Origin: a virus
Taxonomy: Duplodnaviria; Heunggongvirae; Uroviricota; Caudoviricetes
IMG/VR virus record: IMGVR_UViG_2698536628_000004
Length of the DNA: 9,898 nt
Reading direction: 5' to 3' (one strand)
A program made the position numbers and the translations under genes. Position 1 is the first letter of the stretch. Every line of letters starts with the position of its first letter. The notes under the pieces are model-generated. The model did no database searches, was not told where the DNA came from, and saw only the letters and a program-made list of their open reading frames with translations. Of the stretch, positions 1 through 9,898 are shown piece after piece.

Positions 1-909
1 TCGTTCATTCACGTCTTTGAACCCGTGGAGGACGGGCAGACCCGCGGTGCAAATGTGTTTTACAGCGTGATGGAGCAGATGAAGATGCTCGACACGCTGC
101 AGAACACGCAGCTGCAGAGCGCCATTGTGAAGGCGATGTATGCCGCCACCATTGAGAGTGAGCTGGATACGCAGTCAGCGATGGATTTTATTCTGGGCGC
201 GAACAGTCAGGAGCAGCGGGAAAGGCTGACCGGCTGGATTGGTGAAATTGCCGCGTATTACTCCGCAGCACCGGTCCGTCTGGGAGGCGCAAAAGTGCCG
301 CACCTGATGCCGGGGGACTCACTGAACCTGCAGACGGCTCAGGACACGGATAACGGCTACTCCGTGTTTGAGCAGTCACTGCTGCGGTATATCGCTGCCG
401 GGCTGGGTGTCTCGTATGAGCAGCTTTCCCGGAATTACGCCCAGATGAGCTACTCCACGGCACGGGCCAGTGCGAACGAGTCGTGGGCGTACTTTATGGG
501 GCGGCGAAAATTCGTCGCATCCCGTCAGGCGAGCCAGATGTTTCTGTGCTGGCTGGAAGAGGCCATCGTTCGCCGCGTGGTGACGTTACCTTCAAAAGCG
601 CGCTTCAGCTTTCAGGAAGCCCGCAGTGCCTGGGGGAACTGCGACTGGATAGGCTCCGGTCGTATGGCCATCGATGGTCTGAAAGAAGTTCAGGAAGCGG
701 TGATGCTGATAGAAGCCGGACTGAGCACCTACGAGAAAGAGTGCGCGAAACGCGGTGACGACTATCAGGAAATTTTTGCCCAGCAGGTCCGTGAAACGAT
801 GGAGCGCCGCGCAGCCGGTCTTAAACCGCCCGCCTGGGCGGCTGCGGCATTTGAATCCGGGCTGCGACAATCAACAGAGGAGGAGAAGAGTGACAGCAGA
901 GCTGCGTAA
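1..909 (+). CDS. B: Portal protein (lambda gpB-like), 5'-partial; reading frame is open from position 1 and the gene starts upstream of the window
   Basis: Frame open from nt 1 to TAA at 907-909. Translation (…QTRGANVFYSVMEQMKMLDTLQNTQLQSAIVKAMYAATIESELD…) matches my recollection of the C-terminal part of lambda portal gpB. The 20-nt overlap with the downstream C start is as in lambda. Confidence 0.88.
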   Translation, partial: SFIHVFEPVEDGQTRGANVFYSVMEQMKMLDTLQNTQLQSAIVKAMYAATIESELDTQSAMDFILGANSQEQRERLTGWIGEIAAYYSAAPVRLGGAKVPHLMPGDSLNLQTAQDTDNGYSVFEQSLLRYIAAGLGVSYEQLSRNYAQMSYSTARASANESWAYFMGRRKFVASRQASQMFLCWLEEAIVRRVVTLPSKARFSFQEARSAWGNCDWIGSGRMAIDGLKEVQEAVMLIEAGLSTYEKECAKRGDDYQEIFAQQVRETMERRAAGLKPPAWAAAAFESGLRQSTEEEKSDSRAA

Positions 910-2209
910 TCTCCCGCATATTGCCAGCATGGCTTTTAATGAGCCGCTGATGCTTGAACCCGCCTATGCGCGGGTTTTCTTTTGTGCGCTTGCAGGCCAG
1001 CTTGGGATCAGCCGCCTGACGGATGCAGTATCCGGCGACAGCCTGACTGCCGGAGAGGCACCCGCGGCGCTGGCGTTATCCGGTGATGATGACGGACCAC
1101 GACAGGCCCGGAGTTATCAGGTCATGAACGGCATCGCCGTGCTGCCGGTGTCCGGTACGCTGGTCAGCCGGACGCGGGCGCTGCAGCCGTATTCGGGGAT
1201 GACCGGTTACAACGGCATTATCGCCCGTCTGCAACAGGCTGCCAGCGACCCGATGGTGGACGGCATTCTGCTCGATATGGACACACCGGGCGGAATGGTG
1301 GCGGGAGCATTTGACTGTGCTGACATCATCGCCCGTGTGCGTGACATAAAACCGGTATGGGCGCTGGCCAACGACATGAACTGCAGTGCAGGTCAGCTGC
1401 TTGCCAGCGCCGCCTCCCGGCGTCTGGTCACGCAGACCGCCCGGACAGGCTCCATCGGCGTCATGATGGCTCACAGTAATTACGGTGCTGCCCTGGAGAA
1501 ACAGGGCGTGGAAATCACGCTGATTTACAGCGGCAGCCATAAGGTGGATGGCAACCCCTACAGCCATCTACCGGGTGATGTCCGGGAAACACTGCAGTCC
1601 CGGATGGATGCAACCCGCCGGATGTTTGCGCAGAAGGTGTCGGCATATACCGGCCTGTCCGTGCAGGCTGTGCTGGATACCGAGGCTGCAGTGTACAGCG
1701 GTCAGGAGGCCATTGATGCCGGACTGGCTGATGAACTTGTCAACAGCACCGATGCGATCACCGTTATGCGTGATGCACTGGATGCACGTAAATCCCGTCT
1801 CTCAGGAGGGCGAATGACCAAAGAGACTCAATCAACAACTGTTTCAGCCACTGCTTCGCAGGCTGACGTTACTGGCGTGGTGCCAGCGATGGAGGGCGAA
1901 AACGCCAGCGCGGCGCAGCCGGACGTGAACGCGCAGATCACCGCTGCGGTTGCGGCAGAAAACAGCCGCATTATGGGGATCCTCAACTGTGAGGAGGCTC
2001 ACGGACGCGAAGAACAGGCCCGCGTGCTGGCAGAAACCCCCGGTATGACCGTGGAAACGGCCCGCCGCATTCTGGCCGCAGCACCACAGAGTGCACAGGC
2101 GCGCAGTGATACTGCGCTGGATCGTCTGATGCAGGGGGCACCGGCACCGCTGGCTGCAGGTAACCCGGCATCTGATGCCGTTAACGATTTGCTGAACACA
2201 CCAGTGTAA
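890..2209 (+). CDS. C: Head maturation protease / minor capsid protein C (S49/ClpP-like serine protease family)
   Basis: GTG at 890 preceded by AGGAGGAGAAGA (Shine-Dalgarno). Product begins MTAELRNLPHIASMAFNEPLMLEPAYARVFF…, which matches lambda gpC as I recall it. Length is 1320 nt, the same as lambda C. Ser codon AGT at 1385-1387 sits in the NCSAGQ motif, the position I recall as the catalytic Ser166. The ORF-track start at 755 is an upstream in-frame ATG inside B and is not used. Confidence 0.85.
   Translation: MTAELRNLPHIASMAFNEPLMLEPAYARVFFCALAGQLGISRLTDAVSGDSLTAGEAPAALALSGDDDGPRQARSYQVMNGIAVLPVSGTLVSRTRALQPYSGMTGYNGIIARLQQAASDPMVDGILLDMDTPGGMVAGAFDCADIIARVRDIKPVWALANDMNCSAGQLLASAASRRLVTQTARTGSIGVMMAHSNYGAALEKQGVEITLIYSGSHKVDGNPYSHLPGDVRETLQSRMDATRRMFAQKVSAYTGLSVQAVLDTEAAVYSGQEAIDAGLADELVNSTDAITVMRDALDARKSRLSGGRMTKETQSTTVSATASQADVTGVVPAMEGENASAAQPDVNAQITAAVAAENSRIMGILNCEEAHGREEQARVLAETPGMTVETARRILAAAPQSAQARSDTALDRLMQGAPAPLAAGNPASDAVNDLLNTPV
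1604..2209 (+). CDS. Nu3: Capsid scaffolding protein Nu3, nested in the same frame within the 3' part of C and sharing its stop codon
   Basis: In-frame ATG at 1604 (MDATRRMFAQKVSAYTGLSVQ…) gives a 606-nt ORF, identical in length and relative position to lambda Nu3 as I recall it. No separate ORF is visible; the call rests on the known lambda C/Nu3 nested arrangement. Confidence 0.6.
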   Translation: MDATRRMFAQKVSAYTGLSVQAVLDTEAAVYSGQEAIDAGLADELVNSTDAITVMRDALDARKSRLSGGRMTKETQSTTVSATASQADVTGVVPAMEGENASAAQPDVNAQITAAVAAENSRIMGILNCEEAHGREEQARVLAETPGMTVETARRILAAAPQSAQARSDTALDRLMQGAPAPLAAGNPASDAVNDLLNTPV

Positions 2210-2218
2210 GGGATGTTT

Positions 2219-2551
2219 ATGACGAGCAAAGAAACCTTTACCCATTACCAGCCGCTGGGCAACAGTGACCCGGCTCATACCGCAACCGCGCCCGGCGGAT
2301 TGAGTGCGAAAGCGTCTGCAATGACCCCGCTGATGCTGGACACCGCCACCCGTAAGCTGGTTGCGTGGGATGGCACCACCGACGGTGCTGCCGTTGGCAT
2401 TCTTGCGGTTGCTGCTGACCAGACCAGCACCACGCTGACGTTCTACAAGTCCGGCACGTTCCGTTATGAGGATGTGCTCTGGCCGGAGGCTGCCAGCGAC
2501 GAGACGAAAAAACGGACCGCGTTTGCCGGAACGGCAATCAGCATCGTTTAA
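2219..2551 (+). CDS. D: Head decoration protein D
   Basis: ATG at 2219 with AAGGGA Shine-Dalgarno about 8 nt upstream. Product [27 protein letters not shown]…TAISIV is 110 aa and near-identical to lambda gpD as recalled. The ORF-track start at 2213 adds MF, but lambda D starts MTSKE. Confidence 0.9.
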
Positions 2552-2568
2552 CCTTACCCTTCATCACT

Positions 2569-2593
2569 AAAGGCCGCCTGTGCGGCTTTTTTT
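2569..2593 (+). terminator. GC-rich hairpin followed by T-tract in the D-E intergenic region (intrinsic-terminator-like, or an RNA stability/attenuation element)
   Basis: Stem GCCGC (2573-2577), loop CTGT, stem GCGGC (2582-2586), extendable by flanking A/T and G-U pairs, immediately followed by TTTTTTT (2587-2593). E starts 14 nt later, so any termination would have to be partial. Confidence 0.4.
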
Positions 2594-2606
2594 ACGGGAT
2601 TTTTTT

Positions 2607-3632
2607 ATGTCGATGTACACAACCGCCCAGCTGCTGGCGGCAAATGAGCAGAAATTTAAGTTTGATCCGCTGTTTCTGCGTCTCTTTTTCCGTGAGAGCT
2701 ATCCCTTCACCACGGAGAAAGTCTATCTCTCACAAATTCCGGGACTGGTAAACATGGCGCTGTACGTTTCGCCGATTGTTTCCGGTGAGGTTATCCGTTC
2801 CCGTGGCGGCTCCACCTCTGAATTTACGCCGGGATATGTCAAGCCGAAGCATGAGGTGAATCCGCAGATGACCCTGCGTCGCCTGCCGGATGAAGATCCG
2901 CAGAATCTGGCGGACCCGGCTTACCGCCGCCGTCGCATCATCATGCAGAACATGCGTGACGAAGAGCTGGCCATTGCCCAGGTCGAAGAGATGCAGGCAG
3001 TTTCTGCCGTGCTTAAGGGCAAATACACCATGACCGGTGAAGCCTTTGATCCGGTTGAGGTGGATATGGGCCGCAGTGCGGCAAACAACATCACACAGTC
3101 CGGTGGCACGGAGTGGAGCAAGCGTGACAAGTCCACGTATGACCCGACCGACGATATCGAAGCCTACGCGCTGAACGCCAGCGGCGTGGTGAATATCATC
3201 GTGTTTGATCCGAAAGGATGGGCGCTGTTCCGTTCCTTCAAAGCCGTCAGGGATAAGCTGGATACCCGTCGCGGCTCTCATTCCGAGCTGGAGACAGCGG
3301 TAAAAGACCTGGGCAAAGCGGTGTCTTATAAGGGAATGTATGGCGATGTGGCCATCGTCGTGTATTCCGGACAGTACGTGGAAAACGGCGTCAAAAAGAA
3401 CTTCCTGCCGGACAACACGATGGTGCTGGGGAACACTCAGGCACGCGGTCTGCGTACCTATGGCTGTATTCAGGATGCGGACGCACAGCGCGAAGGCATT
3501 AACGCCTCTGCCCGTTACCCGAAAAACTGGGTGACTACCGGCGATCCGGCGCGAGAGTTCACCATGATTCAGTCAGCACCGCTGATGCTGCTGGCTGACC
3601 CTGATGAGTTCGTGTCTGTACAACTGGCGTAA
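2607..3632 (+). CDS. E: Major capsid protein E
   Basis: ATG at 2607. Product MSMYTTAQLLAANEQKFKFDPLFLRLFFRESYPFTTEKVYLSQIPGLV…FVSVQLA is 341 aa and near-identical to lambda gpE as recalled. The ORF-track start at 2580 lies inside the upstream hairpin and T-tract. Confidence 0.92.
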   Translation: MSMYTTAQLLAANEQKFKFDPLFLRLFFRESYPFTTEKVYLSQIPGLVNMALYVSPIVSGEVIRSRGGSTSEFTPGYVKPKHEVNPQMTLRRLPDEDPQNLADPAYRRRRIIMQNMRDEELAIAQVEEMQAVSAVLKGKYTMTGEAFDPVEVDMGRSAANNITQSGGTEWSKRDKSTYDPTDDIEAYALNASGVVNIIVFDPKGWALFRSFKAVRDKLDTRRGSHSELETAVKDLGKAVSYKGMYGDVAIVVYSGQYVENGVKKNFLPDNTMVLGNTQARGLRTYGCIQDADAQREGINASARYPKNWVTTGDPAREFTMIQSAPLMLLADPDEFVSVQLA

Positions 3633-3634
3633 TC

Positions 3635-3652
3635 ATGGCCCTTCGGGGCCAT
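3635..3652 (+). other. Perfect 7-bp hairpin with TTCG tetraloop in the E-FI intergenic region (possible RNA structure or partial terminator)
   Basis: ATGGCCC (3635-3641), TTCG (3642-3645), GGGCCAT (3646-3652), followed by the T-rich stretch TGTTTCTCTG. Confidence 0.4.
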
Positions 3653-3673
3653 TGTTTCTCTGTGGATGAGTCC

Positions 3674-4069
3674 ATGACGAAAGATGAACTGATTGCCCGT
3701 CTCCGCTCGCTGGGTGAACAACTGAACCGTGATGTCAGCCTGACGGGGACGAAAGAAGAACTGGCGCTCCGTGTGGCAGAGCTGGAAGAGGAGCTTGATG
3801 ACACGGATGACGCAGCCGGTCAGGACACGTCTGTCAGCCCGGAAAATGCGCTGACCGGACATGAAAATGAGGTGGTATCAGCACAGACGGATACCGTGAC
3901 TGATACGGCTGCTCTGGTCACGGTTGTGGCACTGGTGACGCTGCATACCGATGCACTTCACGCCACGCGGGATGAACCTGTGGCATTTGTGCTGCCGGGA
4001 ACGGCGTTTCGTGTCTCTGCCGGTGTGGCAGCCGAAATGACAGAACGTGGCCTGGCCAGAATGCAATAA
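3674..4069 (+). CDS. FI: DNA packaging / head assembly protein FI
   Basis: ATG at 3674 preceded by GGATGAG. Product MTKDELIARLRSLGEQLNRDVSLTGTKEELALRVAELEEELDD… matches lambda gpFI at both termini with a more variable middle. Spacing from the E stop is 42 nt, as in lambda. The ORF-track ATG at 3635 lies inside the hairpin and has no Shine-Dalgarno. Confidence 0.8.
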   Translation: MTKDELIARLRSLGEQLNRDVSLTGTKEELALRVAELEEELDDTDDAAGQDTSVSPENALTGHENEVVSAQTDTVTDTAALVTVVALVTLHTDALHATRDEPVAFVLPGTAFRVSAGVAAEMTERGLARMQ

Positions 4070-4080
4070 CGGGAGGCGCT

Positions 4081-4434
4081 GTGGCTGATTTCGATAACCT
4101 GTTCGATGCTGCCATTGCCCGCGCCGATGAAACGATACGCGGGTACATGGGAACGTCAGCCACCATGACATCCGGTGAGCAGTCCGGCGCAGTAATACGT
4201 GGTGTTTTTGATGACCCTGAAAATATCAGCTATGCCGGACAGGGCGTGCGCGTTGAAGGCTCCAGCCCGTCCCTGTTTGTCCGGACTGATGATGTGCGGC
4301 AGCTGCGGCGTGGAGACACGCTGACCATCGGTGAGGAAAACTTCTGGATAGACCGGATTTCGCCGGATGATGGCGGAAGCTGTCATCTCTGGCTTGGGCG
4401 TGGCGTGCCGCCTGCCGTTAACCGTCGCCGCTGA
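4081..4434 (+). CDS. FII: Head-tail joining protein FII (head completion)
   Basis: GTG start at 4081 preceded by GGGAGG. Product MADFDNLFDAAIARADETIRGYMGTSAT…GVPPAVNRRR is 117 aa and near-identical to lambda gpFII as recalled. Confidence 0.82.
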   Translation: MADFDNLFDAAIARADETIRGYMGTSATMTSGEQSGAVIRGVFDDPENISYAGQGVRVEGSSPSLFVRTDDVRQLRRGDTLTIGEENFWIDRISPDDGGSCHLWLGRGVPPAVNRRR

Positions 4435-4445
4435 AAGGGGGATGT

Positions 4446-5024
4446 ATGGCCATAAAAGGTCTTGAGCAGGCCGTTGAAAACCTCAGCCGTATCAGCAAAA
4501 CGGCGGTGCCCGGTGCGTCAGCAATGGCCATTAACCGCGTTGCTTCATCCGCGATATCGCAGTCTGCGTCACAGGTTGCCCGTGAGACAAAGGTACGCCG
4601 GAAACTGGTAAAGGAAAGGGCCAGGCTGAAAAGGGCCACGGTTAAAAATCCGCAGGCCAGAATCAAGGTTAACCGGGGGGATTTGCCCGTAATCAAGCTG
4701 GGGAATGCGCGGGTTGTCCTGTCCCGACGCAGGCGTCGTAAAAAGGGGCAGCGTTCATCCCTGAAAGGTGGCGGCAGCGTGCTTGTGGTGGGAAACCGTC
4801 GTATTCCCGGCGCGTTTATTCAGCAACTGAAAAATGGGCGGTGGCATGTCATGCAGCGTGTGGCCGGGAAAAACCGTTACCCCATTGATGTGGTGAAAAT
4901 CCCGATGGCGGTGCCGCTTACCACGGCGTTTAAACAGAATATTGAACGGATACGGCGTGAACGTCTTCCGAAAGAGCTGGGCTATGCGCTGCAGCATCAA
5001 CTGAGAATGGTAATAAAGCGATGA
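4446..5024 (+). CDS. Z: Tail completion protein Z
   Basis: ATG at 4446 preceded by AAGGGGGAT. The 192-aa product MAIKGLEQAVENLSRISKTAVPG… matches lambda gpZ as recalled. Confidence 0.85.
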   Translation: MAIKGLEQAVENLSRISKTAVPGASAMAINRVASSAISQSASQVARETKVRRKLVKERARLKRATVKNPQARIKVNRGDLPVIKLGNARVVLSRRRRRKKGQRSSLKGGGSVLVVGNRRIPGAFIQQLKNGRWHVMQRVAGKNRYPIDVVKIPMAVPLTTAFKQNIERIRRERLPKELGYALQHQLRMVIKR

Positions 5025-5416
5025 AACATACTGAACTCCGTGCAGCCGTACTGGATGCACTGGAGAAGCATGACACCGGGGCGACGCTTTTTGATGGTCG
5101 CCCCGCTGTTTTTGATGAGGCGGATTTTCCGGCAGTTGCCGTTTATCTCACCGGCGCTGAATACACGGGCGAAGAGCTGGACAGCGATACCTGGCAGGCG
5201 GAGCTGCATATTGAAGTTTTCCTGCCTGCTCAGGTGCCGGATTCAGAGCTGGATGCGTGGATGGAGTCCCGGATTTATCCGGTGATGAGCGATATCCCGG
5301 CACTGGCAGGACTGATTACCACGATGGTTACGCAGGGCTATGAGTATCGTCGTGATGACGATATGGCGTTATGGAGTTCTGCAGATCTGACTTATTCCAT
5401 TACATACGAGATGTGA
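5021..5416 (+). CDS. U: Tail terminator protein U
   Basis: ATG at 5021 overlaps the Z stop (ATGA), implying translational coupling. The 131-aa product [45 protein letters not shown]… matches lambda gpU as recalled. Confidence 0.85.
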
Positions 5417-5423
5417 GGACGAT

Positions 5424-6084
5424 ATGGCAACACCAAATCCCCTTGAGCCGGTAAAAGGTGCCGGTACCACTCTGTGGGTTTACAACGGTCAGGGTGATGC
5501 TTATGCAAACCCGTTGTCAGACGATGACTGGCAGCGACTGGCTAAGGTGAAGGATCTGACGCCGGGCGAGATGACGGCAGAACCCTACGATGATAACTAC
5601 CTGGATGATGAAGACGCGGACTGGACCGCGACCGGGCAGGGGCAGAAAAGCCTATAAAATCCGTTTCCCAAATGGCACGGTGGATGTGTTCCGTGGCTGG
5701 GTCAGCAGTATCGGTAAGGCCGTGACGGCGAAAGAAGTGATCACCCGCACGGTGAAAGTGACCAACGTGGGCAAACCTTCTGTAGCGGAAGAACGCAGCA
5801 AAATTACGCCGGTCACTGCGATTAAGGTGACGCCGACATCCGGTACGGTGGCAAAAGGGAAAACAACCACCCTGACGGTTTCTTTTGAGCCGGAAAGTGC
5901 AACCGACAAGACGTTCAGAGCGGTTTCCGCCGATCCGTCGAAAGCCACCATTAGTGTGAAAGATATGACAATTACGGTAAACGGCGTGGCGACAGGTAAG
6001 GTGCAGATCCCTGTGGTGAGCGGAAATGGTCAGTTCGCCGCAGTGGCTGAAGTCACCGTTACTGAAGCGGGCGCTGCAGGGTAA
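5424..6084 (+). pseudogene. V: Major tail tube protein V, disrupted by an internal frameshifting deletion: N-terminal fragment 5424-5657 (76 aa), remainder continues in the +1 frame from about 5650 to 6084 and includes the C-terminal Ig-like domain
   Basis: The ATG at 5424 gives [33 protein letters not shown]…[14 protein letters not shown], then a stop at 5655-5657. The +1 frame resumes at [37 protein letters not shown]… and runs to 6084. Relative to lambda gpV as I recall it (…[42 protein letters not shown]…), about 30 codons plus 2 nt are missing at the junction. The total length deficit versus lambda V is consistent with a roughly 92-nt deletion. Confidence 0.65.
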
Positions 6085-6097
6085 ACGGAGGTAATAC

Positions 6098-6520
6098 ATG
6101 TTTCTGAAAACAGAACAATTTGAATATAACGGTGTGTCCGTCACGCTTTCCGAATTGTCTGCGCTGCAGCGGTTTGATTATATAAAGTTTGTTTCAGACG
6201 CAGAACAACAGGAGACAACGAAGCATGATGTCGTGCACATTAACCAGCGATATCTGGAAACGGCATCCCTGCTTGTGGCGATGTCGCTATGGCATTCCCA
6301 TTCCCTCAAAGGCACTCTGGCCTCTCCGGAGACAGAGATGCAGCAGATCCGCCGTGAAGTGATGCTGGGATGGCCTGCTGATGCACTGAATCAGGCAACG
6401 AACCGGGTGCTTTATCTTTCAGGTATGCTGGATAACCGGCACGATGCCGATCCTGAACAAACCGGGAAAGCAGAAGCGACTGAGCCGGTAACATCAAAAA
6501 AGCATTCGAAGGCGAGCTGA
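6098..6520 (+). CDS. G: Tail assembly chaperone G
   Basis: ATG at 6098 preceded by GGAGG. The 140-aa product MFLKTEQFEYNGVSVTLSELSALQRF… resembles lambda gpG at the N-terminus and is divergent after that. Length is 423 nt, the same as lambda G. Confidence 0.8.
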   Translation: MFLKTEQFEYNGVSVTLSELSALQRFDYIKFVSDAEQQETTKHDVVHINQRYLETASLLVAMSLWHSHSLKGTLASPETEMQQIRREVMLGWPADALNQATNRVLYLSGMLDNRHDADPEQTGKAEATEPVTSKKHSKAS

Positions 6521-6960
6521 ACTTTGTCCTGAAACTGGCGCGAGAGATGGGGAGACCCGACTGGCGCGCCATGCTTGCCGGGATGACATCCACCGAATAT
6601 GCCGACTGGCGACGTTTTTACTGCACGCATTATTTTCAGGATACCCAACTGGACGCTCATTTTTCCGGGCTGATGTACGCCGTACTCAGCCTGTTTTTTG
6701 GCGATCCGGATATGCATCCGGCGGATTTCAGTCTGCTTGCTCCAGCGTGTGAGGAAGAGCAGACGGAGATGCCGGACGAGGAAGAAATGCTGATGCAGAA
6801 AGCGACAGGAGTTGCCGGAGGCGTCCGGTTCGGAGGGGACGGAGGGCGCGATATTTCACCTTCTGCGGATGTGGTGGATGTCAGCGAGGATGATGTTGCA
6901 TTAATGATGGCTTCAGCGGGGATTTCCGGAGGTGTGAGATATGTCCCAGCCAGCGGGTGA
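6484..6960 (+). CDS. T: Tail assembly chaperone T-frame segment, expressed only as a G-T fusion by -1 frameshifting from G; no independent start is expected
   Basis: The -1 frame relative to G is open from 6484 to TGA at 6958-6960. Its translation (…REMGRPDWRAMLAGMTSTEYADWRRFYCTHYF…GGVRY…) is homologous to the T portion of lambda gpGT as recalled. The ATG at 6547 in the ORF track is internal. Confidence 0.7.
   Translation, partial: AGNIKKAFEGELNFVLKLAREMGRPDWRAMLAGMTSTEYADWRRFYCTHYFQDTQLDAHFSGLMYAVLSLFFGDPDMHPADFSLLAPACEEEQTEMPDEEEMLMQKATGVAGGVRFGGDGGRDISPSADVVDVSEDDVALMMASAGISGGVRYVPASG
6496..6502 (+). promoter_or_regulatory. Candidate programmed -1 ribosomal frameshift slippery heptamer A_AAA_AAG for G-T fusion synthesis
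   Basis: In the G frame the codons are TCA AAA AAG (6494-6502), so the heptamer A AAA AAG is in X_XXY_YYZ register. The -1 frame is open from 6484 (after TGA at 6481-6483) through to 6960. It lies 16 nt before the G stop. Confidence 0.6.
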
Positions 6961-9553
6961 TCTGGTTATTGATTTGAGTCTGGATGCGGCCCGGTTTGAT
7001 GAACAGATGGCCCGGGTACACCGTCATTTTTCCAGTCTGGAGGCGGATGCCAGAAAAACCGCCAGTACTGTTGAACAGGGGCTGAGCCGACAGGCGCTGG
7101 CTGCACAAAAAGCCGGGATATCAGTCGGACAGTATAAGGCTGCCATGCGCACACTGCCCGCACAGTTCACGGATATTGTCACTCAGCTTGCCGGTGGTCA
7201 GAATCCCTTCCTTATCATGCTGCAGCAGGGGGGGCAGATCAGCGATTCATTCGGTGGACCGCTCAGCCTGCTTACCCTGCTGAAGGAGGAACTTCTCGGG
7301 ATCAGGGATGCCTCTGAATCATCAGAGGAGTCGCTGTCAGATACGGCAAATGCACTGGCTGAAAATGCCCGGAATGCCGGTGAGCTGGGACGATTTATGT
7401 CGGTGGCCCGTGTGGCGGCAGGTGGCGGGGTTGCCGTACTGGCCGCGCTTGCTGCCGCCGCCTGGCAGGCAGAGCAGGCTGACCGGGCCTTATTGCGTTC
7501 ACTGATCCTGACCGGAGGGGCGGCTGCCACCACAACGGCAGAATTGTGGAAAATGGCCGGGGTGATCAGCGATGAAGCCGGTGGTGGTATCAGACAGGCG
7601 GCAGAAAATCTGGCCCGTCTGGCAGAAAGCGGGAAATATACCGCCGGGCAGCTACGGATCATGGGGGAAACCTCTCAGAGATGGCTGCAGACGGTGGGGG
7701 ACGATGCCGGGAAGGTGGAAAAAGCCTTTGAAGGGATTGCAGCAGATCCGGTGAAGGCGCTGGCCTCCCTGAATCAGCAGTATAACTTCCTGAGCGTTTC
7801 CCAGTTACGCCATATTGATGAGCTTGAGCGCACGAAAGGTAAACAGGCTGCGGTGACGGAGGCGATGTCCCTGTTTGCGGATGTCATGAATGCACGTCTG
7901 GAGCAACTTGATAAAGCGGCCACGCCGGTGGAAAAAATCTGGGACGATGTTAAAACCTGGACTTCTGACGCATGGGCATGGATAGGTGATCATACACTGG
8001 GGGCACTCAGTCTGATCACTGACGTGGTGGCCGGAACCGTTGAACAAGTGAAGCTGCTGCTTGTGCAGGGGGATCTGGCGCTGGCTGAATTTATTCAGTC
8101 AGCCTGGGAAACGACAAAGAATGTGCCCGGCGTTGGTGCGTTGTTTGGTGAACTGGCAGAAGAGAACCGCGTATTTATTGAGAAAACAAAACGCGATGAA
8201 CTGGCGCTGAGAAAATCCATTGCGGAACGGGATGCGCGTATACGCCAGGGGGAAATGGGGTACATCAACCGCTCGCGTGCAACAGGCGTCAGCAAAGGTC
8301 CTGGGCAGCAGGAAGCCGTCAGCCGTCTGGCTGAAGAGCTGACAGGTAAAAAGCATACATCACCGAAAACGCGCTCTGCCGGGGAGAGGGAAGAGGAGCA
8401 GGCAAGAGAGGCTCTGCTTGCCCTTGAAGCTGAGCTCAGGACGCTGGAAAAACACAGCGGTGCGAATGAGAAAATCAGTCGGCAGCGCCGTGATTTATGG
8501 AAGGCGGAAAGTCAGTATGCGGTCCTGAAAGAGGCTGCCACGAAACGGCAGTTATCCTGGCAGGAAAAATCCCTGCTGGCCCATGAGAAAGAGACGCTGG
8601 AGTACAAACGCCAGCTGGCTGACCTGGGCGACAAGGTTGAACACCAGAAACGCCTGAATGAGCTGGCACAGCAGGCGGTGCGGTTTGAAGAGCAGCAGAG
8701 CGCGAAGCAGGCCGCCATCAGCGCAAAAGCCCGCGGTCTCACTGACCGTCAGGCGCAGCGGGAGTCTGAAGCGCAGCGTCTTCGGGACGTGTACGGTGAT
8801 AATCCGCAGGCGCTGGCCCGGGTCACTGGGGCACTGAAACAGACATGGGCGGATGAAGACATGCTGCGCGGTGACTGGCTGGCCGGGCTGAAGTCCGGCT
8901 GGGGGGAGTGGGCGGAAAGTGCGACGGACAGTTTTTCGCAGGTTAAAAGTGCTGCCACGCAGACCTTTGACGGTATTGCACAGAATATGGCGGCGATGCT
9001 GACCGGTGCAGAGGCAGACTGGCGGGGATTCACCCGTTCGGTGCTGTCCATGATGACAGAAATCCTGCTTAAACAGGCCATGGTGGGCATTGTCGGGCGT
9101 ATCGGCAGCGCCATTGGCGGTGCTTTCGGTGGTGGTGCATCTGCTTCCTCGGGGACGGCCATTGAGGCTGCGGCGGCGAACTTCCATTTCGCGACCGGAG
9201 GATTTACGGGGACGGGCGGCAAATATGAGCCTGCGGGGATAGTTCACCGCGGGGAGTTTGTTTTCACGAAAGAGGCAACCAGCCGGATAGGTGTGGGGAA
9301 TCTTTACCGTCTGATGCGCGGCTATGCGGAAGGTGGTTATGTGGGTGGTGCCGGAAGTCCGGCGCAGATGCGGCGGGCGGAAGGTATTAATTTTAATCAG
9401 AACAATCACGTGGTGATTCAGAACGACGGTATCAACGGACAGGCGGGGCCGCAGCTGATGAAGGCGGTGTATGACATGGCCCGCAAGGGGGCGCAGGATG
9501 AGCTCCGGCTGCAGTTGCGTGATGGCGGTATGTTATCAGGGAGCGGGCGATGA
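6941..9553 (+). CDS. H: Tail tape measure protein H
   Basis: ATG at 6941 preceded by GGAGGTG, overlapping the T end by 20 nt. The product is 870 aa. The N-terminus (MSQPAGDLVIDLSLDAARFDEQMARV…) and C-terminal third (…LRTLEKHSGANEKISRQRRDLWKAESQYAVL…GGFTGTGGKYEPAGIVHRGEFVFTKEATSRIGVGNLYRLMRGYA…) match lambda gpH as recalled; the central region is divergent. Confidence 0.9.
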   Translation: MSQPAGDLVIDLSLDAARFDEQMARVHRHFSSLEADARKTASTVEQGLSRQALAAQKAGISVGQYKAAMRTLPAQFTDIVTQLAGGQNPFLIMLQQGGQISDSFGGPLSLLTLLKEELLGIRDASESSEESLSDTANALAENARNAGELGRFMSVARVAAGGGVAVLAALAAAAWQAEQADRALLRSLILTGGAAATTTAELWKMAGVISDEAGGGIRQAAENLARLAESGKYTAGQLRIMGETSQRWLQTVGDDAGKVEKAFEGIAADPVKALASLNQQYNFLSVSQLRHIDELERTKGKQAAVTEAMSLFADVMNARLEQLDKAATPVEKIWDDVKTWTSDAWAWIGDHTLGALSLITDVVAGTVEQVKLLLVQGDLALAEFIQSAWETTKNVPGVGALFGELAEENRVFIEKTKRDELALRKSIAERDARIRQGEMGYINRSRATGVSKGPGQQEAVSRLAEELTGKKHTSPKTRSAGEREEEQAREALLALEAELRTLEKHSGANEKISRQRRDLWKAESQYAVLKEAATKRQLSWQEKSLLAHEKETLEYKRQLADLGDKVEHQKRLNELAQQAVRFEEQQSAKQAAISAKARGLTDRQAQRESEAQRLRDVYGDNPQALARVTGALKQTWADEDMLRGDWLAGLKSGWGEWAESATDSFSQVKSAATQTFDGIAQNMAAMLTGAEADWRGFTRSVLSMMTEILLKQAMVGIVGRIGSAIGGAFGGGASASSGTAIEAAAANFHFATGGFTGTGGKYEPAGIVHRGEFVFTKEATSRIGVGNLYRLMRGYAEGGYVGGAGSPAQMRRAEGINFNQNNHVVIQNDGINGQAGPQLMKAVYDMARKGAQDELRLQLRDGGMLSGSGR

Positions 9554-9879
9554 AAACATTTCGCTGGAAAGTGAAGCCGGATATGGAGGTGAACTCGCAG
9601 CCATCGGTGCGTGAAGTGCGTTTTGGTGACGGGTACTCACAGCGTATGGCGGCAGGGCTGAATGCTGACCTGAAAACATACCGTGTGACGCTTTCCGTGA
9701 CCCGGGAGGAGGCCCGGCATCTGGAAGCGTTCCTGGCAGAGCACGGAGGCTGGAAGGCATTTTTGTGGAAGCCACCCTATGCATACCGGCAGATAAAGGT
9801 GACCTGTGCCGGGTGGTCTGCGCGGGTCGGGATGTTGCGCGTTGAGTTCAGCGCGGAGTTTAAGCAGGTGGTGAACTGA
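9550..9879 (+). CDS. M: Minor tail protein M
   Basis: ATG at 9550 overlaps the H stop (ATGA). The 109-aa product MKTFRWKVKPDMEVNSQPSVREVRFGDGYSQR…RVEFSAEFKQVVN matches lambda gpM as recalled. Confidence 0.9.
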   Translation: MKTFRWKVKPDMEVNSQPSVREVRFGDGYSQRMAAGLNADLKTYRVTLSVTREEARHLEAFLAEHGGWKAFLWKPPYAYRQIKVTCAGWSARVGMLRVEFSAEFKQVVN

Positions 9880-9898
9880 TGCAGGATATTCACGAAGA
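9879..9898 (+). CDS. L: Minor tail protein L, 5' end only (3'-partial at the window edge)
   Basis: ATG at 9879 overlaps the M stop (TGATG). The first codons MQDIHEE resemble the start of lambda gpL (MQDIRQE…). Only 20 nt are visible. Confidence 0.55.

What the first reader, a model, noticed from the sequence alone, without database searches (positions are those of the whole stretch)
5424..6084. Major tail protein gene V is split by a frameshifting internal deletion of about 92 nt
The V reading frame ends at TAA 5655-5657 after 76 codons, and the rest of V continues in the +1 frame from about 5650 (AYKIRFPNG…). About 30 residues of the N-terminal tube-forming domain are missing relative to lambda gpV as I recall it, and the deletion is not a multiple of 3. 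The flanking genes (U upstream, G downstream) are intact and correctly spaced. The tail tube protein is essential, so this copy would not make functional tails. That points to a decaying or defective prophage, or possibly a satellite-like remnant that depends on a helper, unless the lesion is a sequencing or assembly artefact. The C-terminal Ig-like domain segment remains as an intact open frame.
Basis: partly seen in the sequence, partly recalled or inferred. Interest (0 to 1): 0.6.

Follow-up and report, generated by a model that had tools for sequence, protein, structure and literature searches.

The report
Broken tail-tube gene in a prophage
The tail-tube gene (V) of a lambda-like E. coli prophage has lost 92 bases, which shifts its reading frame and removes a core part of the protein; this is an ordinary case of a prophage gene being knocked out, seen so far only in this one sequence.

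Summary
The window is a lambda-type head and tail gene block (B, C/Nu3, D, E, FI, FII, Z, U, V, G, T, H, M). It is base-for-base identical to a prophage in E. coli 2014C-3057 at 1-5488 and 5650-9898, and many other complete genomes match it at about 100% apart from the same gap. The only differences lie inside V: a dinucleotide allelic variant (5489-5490) and a net loss of 92 nt at 5648-5650.

V therefore stops at TAA 5655-5657 after 77 codons (not 76). It resumes in the +1 frame at GCC 5650 (Ala107). Residues 76-106 are lost: Pfam PF16461 profile positions 60-89, meaning one core beta-strand and the only alpha-helix of the tube-forming domain.

The junction occurs in none of 5,426 complete E. 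coli genomes, nor in the viral, metagenome or species-representative collections searched. The lesion is therefore private to the source and probably recent.

Most likely it is a real inactivating deletion in a decaying lambdoid prophage, which co-resident prophages with near-identical V genes could complement. An assembly artefact cannot be excluded without reads. Programmed frameshifting and a satellite origin are not supported.

Other V deletions are common in E. coli and Shigella prophages. Interest is low.

The parts
5021..5416 (+). gene U (tail terminator), intact, 131 aa
   Evidence: ORF list. DNA identical to NZ_CP027387.1, where it is annotated 'phage minor tail U family protein'.
5424..5657 (+). 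V N-terminal fragment: 77 codons plus TAA. Residues 1-75 are native; Ser76 and Leu77 come from the junction.
   Evidence: Pfam PF16461 Phage_TTP_12 profile positions 1-59, 92.9 bits.
5489..5490 (+). TC instead of CA (GGT CAG instead of GGC AAG, Gln23 instead of Lys23). Apart from the junction, this is the only difference from the reference prophage in 9.9 kb. It is a natural allelic variant.
   Evidence: The same GGTCAG occurs in OkiPb01713 and in the P0007 allele.
5646..5652 (+). Deletion junction AAA-A-GCC. The left flank ends at 5647 or 5648, the right flank starts at 5649 or 5650, and one or two A's cannot be assigned to either flank in the sampled relatives. Net loss 92 nt (V nt about 226-317).
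5650..6084 (+). Remainder of V in the +1 frame: Ala107 to Gly250 plus TAA. It holds the last third of the tube domain and the complete Ig-like (Big_2) domain.
   Evidence: PF16461 profile positions 90-135 (69.5 bits) and PF02368 Big_2 positions 1-79 (69.7 bits).
6098..6520 (+). gene G (tail assembly chaperone), intact, 140 aa

Best explanation
Gene V, which encodes the major tail (tail-tube) protein of a lambda-type prophage common in Shiga-toxin-type E. coli, has suffered a real and recent deletion of 92 nt (net). The deletion is private to the source strain. It shifts the frame, so translation ends two codons past the junction. That yields a 77-residue fragment containing only strands 1-3 and the long E-loop of the tube domain. 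Even if the frame were restored, residues 76-106 would be absent: one core beta-strand and the single alpha-helix of the beta-sandwich that forms the hexameric tail ring. This copy therefore cannot build a tail tube. The other head and tail genes in the window are untouched. The prophage could still make DNA-filled heads, and it would need V protein or finished tails from another lambdoid prophage in the same cell to form infectious particles. Shown here: the deletion, the frameshift, the missing structural elements, the intact neighbours, and the absence of the junction elsewhere. Inferred: loss of function, recency, that the lesion is real, and trans-complementation.
For: The window is identical to NZ_CP027387.1 at 1-5488 and 5650-9898, with all differences inside V. 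At least 15 complete genomes match the whole window at about 100% in two pieces spanning 9,990 nt, which is 92 nt more than the window. The V alignments show a single 92-nt net gap. Pfam profile positions 60-89 are missing. An AlphaFold2 model of an intact allele places strand 78-86, the only helix 92-102, and strand 106-111. [quoted passage not shown] In 22 diverse V proteins, 17 residues within 76-106 are invariant and 4 more nearly so. No junction was found in 5,426 complete E. coli genomes or in the viral, metagenome and species-representative collections; the shorter 19-mer gave only chance matches. The exact tape-measure protein is widespread (1,086 blocks) and is accompanied by a 250-aa V in 9 of 10 places shown. 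All other genes are identical to references, unlike the error-rich assembly L027 in which many genes are split. Relatives carry 2-7 V-like places per genome. Complementation of morphogenetic defects among near-identical lambdoid prophages was proposed for O157 Sakai, where Sp4 is scored defective for the major tail function (PMC2669165). Other independent V lesions are frequent.
Against: No reads or second assembly of the source are available, so the lesion is not independently confirmed. The junction has no flanking direct repeat of 3 nt or more, and one or two bases match neither flank in any sampled allele, so no simple deletion mechanism is demonstrated. The exact parental allele (Gln23 with AAA at Lys75 and CGA at Arg106) was not found. 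Absence of the fragment proteins from the gene-position index is weak evidence, because pseudogenes often have no recorded product. Loss of function is inferred from structure and conservation and was not measured.
Confidence: 0.72

Rival explanations
1. Sequencing or assembly artefact: the source genome has an intact V, and the 92-nt gap arose during assembly or polishing. One possible cause is that several near-identical V paralogues in one genome were collapsed or mixed.
For: Related genomes hold 2-7 V-like places. All differences from the reference cluster within 161 nt of V (5489-5649), as expected if reads from a paralogue contributed to the consensus. The lesion is unique. Split V genes that are probably artefacts do exist in public assemblies (L027).
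Against: The other 9.7 kb is error-free relative to many genomes, unlike error-rich assemblies. A new 92-nt deletion junction with no shared k-mer is not a typical product of short-read graph assemblers or of long-read homopolymer errors (inference). The Gln23 variant is a genuine natural allele.
Confidence: 0.18
2. Recoding: the two frames are joined during translation by a +1 ribosomal slip on AAA-A (5646-5649). This might be helped by the Shine-Dalgarno-like AGGGG three bases upstream, as in prfB, and would give a 219-residue V lacking residues 76-106.
For: The sequence allows it: tRNA-Lys can re-pair on AAA one base downstream, the next codon would be GCC (Ala107), and AGGGG lies 3 nt upstream of the AAA codon.
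Against: No relative conserves a two-frame V; relatives with identical flanks have one continuous ORF, so the arrangement is a new lesion rather than an evolved signal. The A-site codon AGC is an ordinary sense codon, not a stop or rare codon (established knowledge of prfB-type shifting). The product would still lack a core strand and the helix. The GGGCAGGGGCAG motif is native coding sequence (Gly-Gln-Gly-Gln) in all alleles.
Confidence: 0.03
3. Selected inactivation or a mutational hotspot: loss of the central segment of V is favoured in lysogens, for example by stopping release of infectious particles while keeping cargo genes. Alternatively this segment is intrinsically prone to deletion, and the window is one more instance.
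For: Of the 120 best V-homologue clusters, 38 carry internal deletions of 5 aa or more, most often over residues 71-100 (15-18 clusters). Twelve clusters share an in-frame 19-aa deletion on varied backgrounds. P0024 (deletion of 78-103) is on 11 contigs. L016 has a Z-V fusion with its right breakpoint about 15 nt from the window's.
Against: The recurrent in-frame deletions are explained by 8-10-nt direct repeats in lambda-type alleles. The window-type allele lacks these repeats, so the window's event does not share that mechanism. The query used lacked residues 76-106, so deletion variants were not penalised in the ranking and their share may be inflated. No test of selection was made.
Confidence: 0.07

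Closest known systems
Bacteriophage lambda gpV, major tail (tail-tube) protein (PDB 2K4Q, 2L04, 6P3E, 8IYK; Pfam PF16461 + PF02368)
   Same: Same family and same gene position between U and G. The intact allele of this prophage aligns with lambda gpV over residues 1-245 (E about 1e-127), and it has the same two-domain layout.
   Different: Here the gene is interrupted: residues 76-106 are deleted and the frame is shifted, so no full-length protein is encoded.
Defective lambdoid prophages of enterohaemorrhagic E. coli (O157 Sakai Sp1-Sp18; Asadulghani et al. 2009, PMC2669165)
   Same: Lambda-like prophages with near-identical morphogenetic genes, many carrying single defects. Sp4 is scored defective for the major tail function. 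Defects are proposed to be complemented by other resident prophages.
   Different: The specific 92-nt lesion is not among those described and was found in no other record. Whether the source strain has helper prophages is unknown.
In-frame V deletion variants in E. coli and Shigella prophages (227-aa class with a 19-aa deletion; P0024 lacking 78-103; P0079 lacking 13 aa)
   Same: They lose the same central part of the tube domain.
   Different: Those are in frame and are flanked by 8-10-nt direct repeats in lambda-type alleles. The window's deletion is out of frame, lacks flanking repeats, and lies on a different allele.
Lambda G-T programmed -1 frameshift
   Same: A two-frame arrangement in the same tail operon. 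The window has its own G-T site, A AAA AAG at 6496-6502.
   Different: G-T is conserved in all relatives and uses a heptanucleotide slippery site. The V split is unique to this window and would need a +1 shift with no conserved signal.

Membership tests
Lambda gpV-type tail tube protein (Pfam PF16461 Phage_TTP_12 + PF02368 Big_2) | Significant match to PF16461 above the gathering score | tested here: met
   N fragment 92.9 bits and C fragment 69.5 bits, against a cut-off of 26.1.
Lambda gpV-type tail tube protein (Pfam PF16461 Phage_TTP_12 + PF02368 Big_2) | Complete tube-forming domain (profile positions 1-135 in one chain) | tested here: not met
   Profile positions 60-89 are absent and the two remaining parts are in different frames. 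The model shows strand 78-86 and helix 92-102 are lost.
Lambda gpV-type tail tube protein (Pfam PF16461 Phage_TTP_12 + PF02368 Big_2) | Single ORF of about 246-250 codons between U and G | tested here: not met
   The position between U and G is conserved, but the ORF is split into 77 and 144 native-frame codons.
Lambda gpV-type tail tube protein (Pfam PF16461 Phage_TTP_12 + PF02368 Big_2) | C-terminal Ig-like domain | tested here: met
   Big_2 profile positions 1-79 of 79, 69.7 bits.
Lambda gpV-type tail tube protein (Pfam PF16461 Phage_TTP_12 + PF02368 Big_2) | Polymerises into hexameric rings around the tape measure protein | not testable with these tools
   Needs expression and electron microscopy.
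Pseudogene in a defective prophage | Disrupted reading frame relative to intact orthologues of near-identical sequence | tested here: met
   Flanks are 100% identical and relatives have an intact 250-aa V.
Pseudogene in a defective prophage | The lesion is real in the organism (not an assembly error) | not testable with these tools
   No reads are available. Indirect arguments only.
Pseudogene in a defective prophage | Other signs of decay in the same element | tested here: inconclusive
   None in the window itself. The closest relative's prophage has a frameshifted ATP-binding protein gene, a TerB-family pseudogene and an IS66-family insertion outside the window's range.
Programmed ribosomal frameshift gene | Two-frame architecture and shift site conserved among relatives | tested here: not met
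   All relatives have one continuous V ORF.
Programmed ribosomal frameshift gene | Slippery site in the correct register with a stimulator | tested here: inconclusive
   AAA-A with AGGGG 3 nt upstream permits a +1 slip on paper, but there is no slow A-site codon and efficiency is untested.
Phage satellite (P4, PICI-type) | Lacks most structural genes and relies on a helper's virion proteins | tested here: not met
   The window encodes the full lambda-type set from portal to M, identical to an ordinary lambdoid prophage.

The most novel reading that the evidence does not exclude
The central segment of V (residues about 72-106) is a preferred target for inactivating deletions in E. coli and Shigella lambdoid prophages. 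The cause would be local sequence features or a benefit to lysogens from disabling tail-tube formation while keeping the rest of the prophage. The window would then be an independent, repeat-less example of this recurrent loss.
Probability: 0.1. Interest if true: 0.35.

Novelty: already known. Interest (0 to 1): 0.12.

Why it matters
In itself it matters little. Single-gene knockouts are the normal way prophages decay, and defective major tail genes are already recorded in E. coli O157 prophages. For whoever annotates the source genome, this prophage should be marked as V-defective, and it would be unable to form tails without help from another prophage. The side observation may be useful for prophage-intactness predictors: many public V genes carry in-frame deletions generated by short direct repeats, and these are currently annotated as normal 'phage tail protein'.

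Tried and rejected
1. I searched for the same junction elsewhere. An 81-nt junction query against 5,426 complete E. coli genomes gave only two-piece hits spanning 173 nt. The 30-mer junction was absent from the viral, metagenome and species-representative collections. A 19-mer core gave only chance matches in unrelated taxa.

2. I looked up the exact fragment proteins (77, 164 and 159 aa) in the gene-position index and found none. This is weak evidence, because pseudogenes often have no recorded product.

3. I searched for the exact parental allele. The best match to 5440-5653 is 99.0%. No allele has CAGAAAAG. CGA at Arg106 exists only in divergent lambda-type alleles. P0007 shares Gln23 but has AAG TCT and CGG. 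My recollection that lambda has AAA AGC at Lys75-Ser76 was wrong; it has AAA TCT.

4. I looked for a mechanism. No flanking direct repeat of 6 nt or more was found. An 8-bp inverted repeat abuts the right breakpoint, but the segment folds no better than shuffles (z = 0.14). Two-step slippage models worked through by hand did not reproduce the junction.

5. I considered recoding (+1 slip, prfB-like, or bypassing) and rejected it, because relatives do not conserve the arrangement and the product would still lack core elements.

6. I rejected the satellite reading, because the full structural gene set is present.

7. I considered independent expression of the C-terminal fragment. The candidate starts in that frame (ATG 5590, 5605 and 5608; GTG 5680, 5686 and 5722) have no obvious ribosome-binding sequence upstream, and no promoter-like site was found in 5300-6200.

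Full report
**What the window is.** The ORF list shows a co-linear lambda-type late gene block on the + strand:
- end of portal B (25-909)
- C/Nu3 protease-scaffold (to 2209)
- D (2213-2551)
- E (to 3632)
- FI (3635-4069)
- FII (4081-4434)
- Z (4446-5024)
- U (5021-5416)
- V (5424-6084)
- G (6098-6520)
- T (to 6960)
- H (6941-9553)
- M (9550-9879)

A megablast of the whole window against 5,426 complete E. coli genomes found more than a dozen chromosomes matching at about 100% identity over all 9,898 bases. Every match was in two pieces spanning 9,990 bases, which is 92 more than the window. A direct comparison with the best hit (NZ_CP027387.1, strain 2014C-3057) shows the window is identical to it at 1-5488 and at 5650-9898. 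Every difference lies inside V.

**The observation.** V starts at ATG 5424 and runs 77 codons to TAA 5655-5657. The remainder of V (AYKIRFPNG…) is read from GCC 5650-5652 in the +1 frame and continues to TAA 6082-6084. The intact gene in relatives is 753 nt (250 aa), and here it spans 661 nt. Ser76 to Arg106 are lost: 30 full codons plus two bases. Pfam confirms the picture:
- The N fragment matches PF16461 (lambda tail tube protein) at profile positions 1-59.
- The C fragment matches the same profile at positions 90-135.
- The Big_2 Ig-like domain is complete.

U and G are intact and correctly spaced.

**The exact endpoints.** The window reads GGGCAGAA-AA-GCCTATAAAA against the closest relatives' GGGCAGAAGTCTGCAGG…GATGTGCGGGCCTATAAAA. 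The two middle A's match neither flank in these relatives. Other natural alleles have AAA TCT at Lys75-Ser76 (OkiPb01713 and lambda itself). Lambda-type alleles in 33 viral contigs have CGA at Arg106. In those alleles, a clean deletion of V nt 226-317 reproduces the junction without mismatch.

The window also has GGT CAG (Gln23) where the reference has GGC AAG (Lys23) at 5489-5490. That is a natural variant, found in OkiPb01713 and in protein cluster P0007 with 380 member sequences. No sampled allele combines all three features. The parent was therefore an unsampled mosaic V allele, or else the event added or changed one or two bases.

No direct repeat of 6 nt or more flanks the deletion, and by eye no microhomology of 3 nt or more is visible at the junction. 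The right breakpoint coincides with the 3′ arm of an 8-bp inverted repeat (TTATAGGC/GCCTATAA). However, the segment folds no better than shuffled sequence (z = 0.14). The mutational mechanism is not established.

**What is lost.** The intact allele aligns with lambda gpV over residues 1-245 (E about 1e-127), and gpV has solved structures (2K4Q, 2L04, 6P3E, 8IYK and others). The cryo-EM description gives the N-terminal domain as a beta-sandwich flanked by one alpha-helix. The E-loop (residues 50-78) lies between beta3 and beta4, and six sandwiches form the ring core (PMC10721106).

An AlphaFold2 model of the intact allele P0007 has mean pLDDT 69, with block means of 70-82 over residues 81-110. 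It places a strand at 78-86, the only helix at 92-102 and the next strand at 106-111. The deletion therefore removes a core strand and the helix. In an alignment of 22 diverse V proteins, 17 positions within 76-106 are invariant and four more nearly so.

The 77-residue product retains only the first strands and the E-loop. Even a frame-restored protein would lack essential core elements. Loss of tail-tube function is therefore a strong inference, though it was not measured.

**Is the lesion shared, natural or private?**
- The 81-nt junction query found no single-piece match in 5,426 complete genomes; the best hits are two pieces spanning 173 nt.
- The 30-mer junction is absent from the viral, metagenome and species-representative collections.
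- A 19-mer core hit only unrelated sequences, at about the number expected by chance.
- The fragment proteins are not in the gene-position index. This is weak evidence, because pseudogenes often have no recorded product.
- As a positive control, the window's exact 870-aa tape-measure protein is listed in 1,086 blocks of that index. In 9 of the 10 places shown it sits next to a 250-aa V.

The lesion is therefore private to the source among everything searched. Because the flanks are identical to many genomes, it is evolutionarily very recent, or else it is an artefact.

**Real or artefact?** The other 9.7 kb is free of any difference from several independent complete genomes. That is unlike error-rich assemblies such as L027, where E, FI, Z, V and H are all split. 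A 92-nt deletion with a new junction and no shared k-mer is not a typical assembler or polishing error (inference).

Against this, the differences cluster within 161 nt of a gene that exists in 2-7 near-identical places per genome in relatives. Paralogue mixing during assembly therefore cannot be excluded. I put about 0.7 on a real lesion and about 0.2 on an artefact. Reads or PCR would settle it.

**Consequences and mechanism (inferred).**
- In lambda, heads and tails assemble on separate pathways and join afterwards (established knowledge). A V-null prophage should make DNA-filled heads but no tail tubes.
- Late transcription in lambdoid phages is antiterminated by Q (established knowledge), so the premature stop should not silence G, T, H and the genes downstream.
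- Related strains carry several lambdoid prophages whose V genes are 95-100% identical to the window's 5′ V segment.
- For O157 Sakai, complementation of morphogenetic defects among such prophages has been proposed. Sp4 is listed there as defective for the major tail function (PMC2669165).
- Helper-dependent particle formation is thus plausible, but the source strain's other prophages are unknown.
- In the closest relative, the same prophage already carries a frameshifted ATP-binding protein gene (possibly a replication gene, by position), a TerB-family pseudogene and an IS66-family insertion between J and lom. It also carries the effector gene nleG7. This fits a cargo-bearing prophage in decay.

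**Alternatives considered.** A +1 ribosomal slip on AAA-A (5646-5649) would join Lys75 to Ala107. An AGGGG lies 3 nt upstream, which recalls the prfB site. I rejected this reading for three reasons:
- The motif is ordinary coding sequence (Gly-Gln-Gly-Gln) in all alleles.
- No relative has a two-frame V.
- The following codon is an ordinary sense codon, and the product would still lack the core segment.

A satellite origin is contradicted by the full structural gene set. The C-terminal part has no evident ribosome-binding sequence or promoter of its own.

**Wider context found on the way.** I searched the protein database with the hypothetical in-frame fusion of the two fragments. Internal V deletions turned out to be common: 38 of the 120 best clusters have gaps of 5 residues or more. 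They are concentrated at residues 71-100 and at 141-170, the linker between the tube domain and the Ig-like domain.
- Twelve clusters of 227-aa proteins from E. coli and Shigella share an in-frame 19-residue deletion. It corresponds exactly to two copies of GCAGGGGCAG lying 57 nt apart in lambda-type V.
- A 13-residue deletion corresponds to GCTGGCGTGG repeats lying 39 nt apart.
- P0024 lacks residues 78-103, between two Gly-Asp-Thr motifs. It is found on 11 contigs whose neighbouring genes are intact.
- A relative with the same tape-measure protein (2012C-4606) has an in-frame 993-nt deletion that fuses Z to V at residue 102 and removes U.

The window-type allele lacks those repeats, so its lesion is a separate kind of event. 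Still, it falls in the same often-lost segment. The query I used lacked residues 76-106, so such variants were not penalised in the ranking and their share may be overstated.

**Verdict.** The feature is an inactivating 92-nt deletion in the tail-tube gene of an otherwise intact, widespread lambdoid prophage module, and among the collections searched it is unique to this source. It is an ordinary example of prophage decay, pending read-level confirmation, and it is of low general interest.

Noticed in passing
L016 907-1644 (E. coli 2012C-4606, CP027352.1): The same prophage family (identical tape-measure protein) carries an independent in-frame 993-nt deletion that fuses Z (…VVLSRRR) to V at Ser102 and removes U. 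Its right breakpoint is about 15 nt from the window's.
   Followed up: partly
L024 668-677/725-734 and 704-713/743-752 (lambda V); proteins P0061-P0078, P0079: Lambda-type V genes contain 10-nt direct repeats lying 57 and 39 nt apart. These match recurrent in-frame 19-aa and 13-aa deletions seen in many E. coli and Shigella V proteins that are annotated as normal 'phage tail protein'.
   Followed up: partly
L025 4001-4666 (protein P0024): A 221-aa V with an in-frame deletion of residues 78-103 between two Gly-Asp-Thr motifs. It is present on 11 contigs and all neighbouring head and tail genes are intact.
   Followed up: partly
L005 785-1558 (E. coli O157:H7 F6667): This V has a 21-nt in-frame tandem duplication (GATGATAACTACCTGGATGAT) in the E-loop region, giving a 257-aa protein.
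   Followed up: no
window 6496-6502 (and 6464-6470): The G-T -1 frameshift site in this phage appears to be A AAA AAG, at the same codon offset (398 nt into G) as lambda's G GGA AAG. The GGGAAAG at 6464 is out of register, and the T frame is closed until 6484.
   Followed up: partly
L003 25710-25717 / 25742-25749 (window 5650-5657 is the right arm): An 8-bp perfect inverted repeat, TTATAGGC/GCCTATAA, in intact V. The window's deletion ends exactly where the 3′ arm begins. The fold is no more stable than shuffled sequence, so this may be coincidence.
   Followed up: partly
window 5638-5649: A Shine-Dalgarno-like AGGGG, a 3-nt spacer, then AAA-A. The layout resembles the prfB +1 shift site and was created by juxtaposition at the junction.
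   Followed up: partly
L003 3684-4425, 10757-11119, 35943-38215, 41760-42410: In the closest relative, the same prophage has a frameshifted ATP-binding protein gene, a TerB-family pseudogene, and an IS66-family (ISEc22) insertion between J and lom. It also carries the type III effector gene nleG7 next to pphA/yebW.
   Followed up: no
L027 (GCA_008711265.1, VXJM01000001.1): E, FI, Z, V and H are all split into fragments, which is the signature of an indel-rich assembly. The frameshifted V product P0118 from this record is therefore probably an artefact.
   Followed up: no
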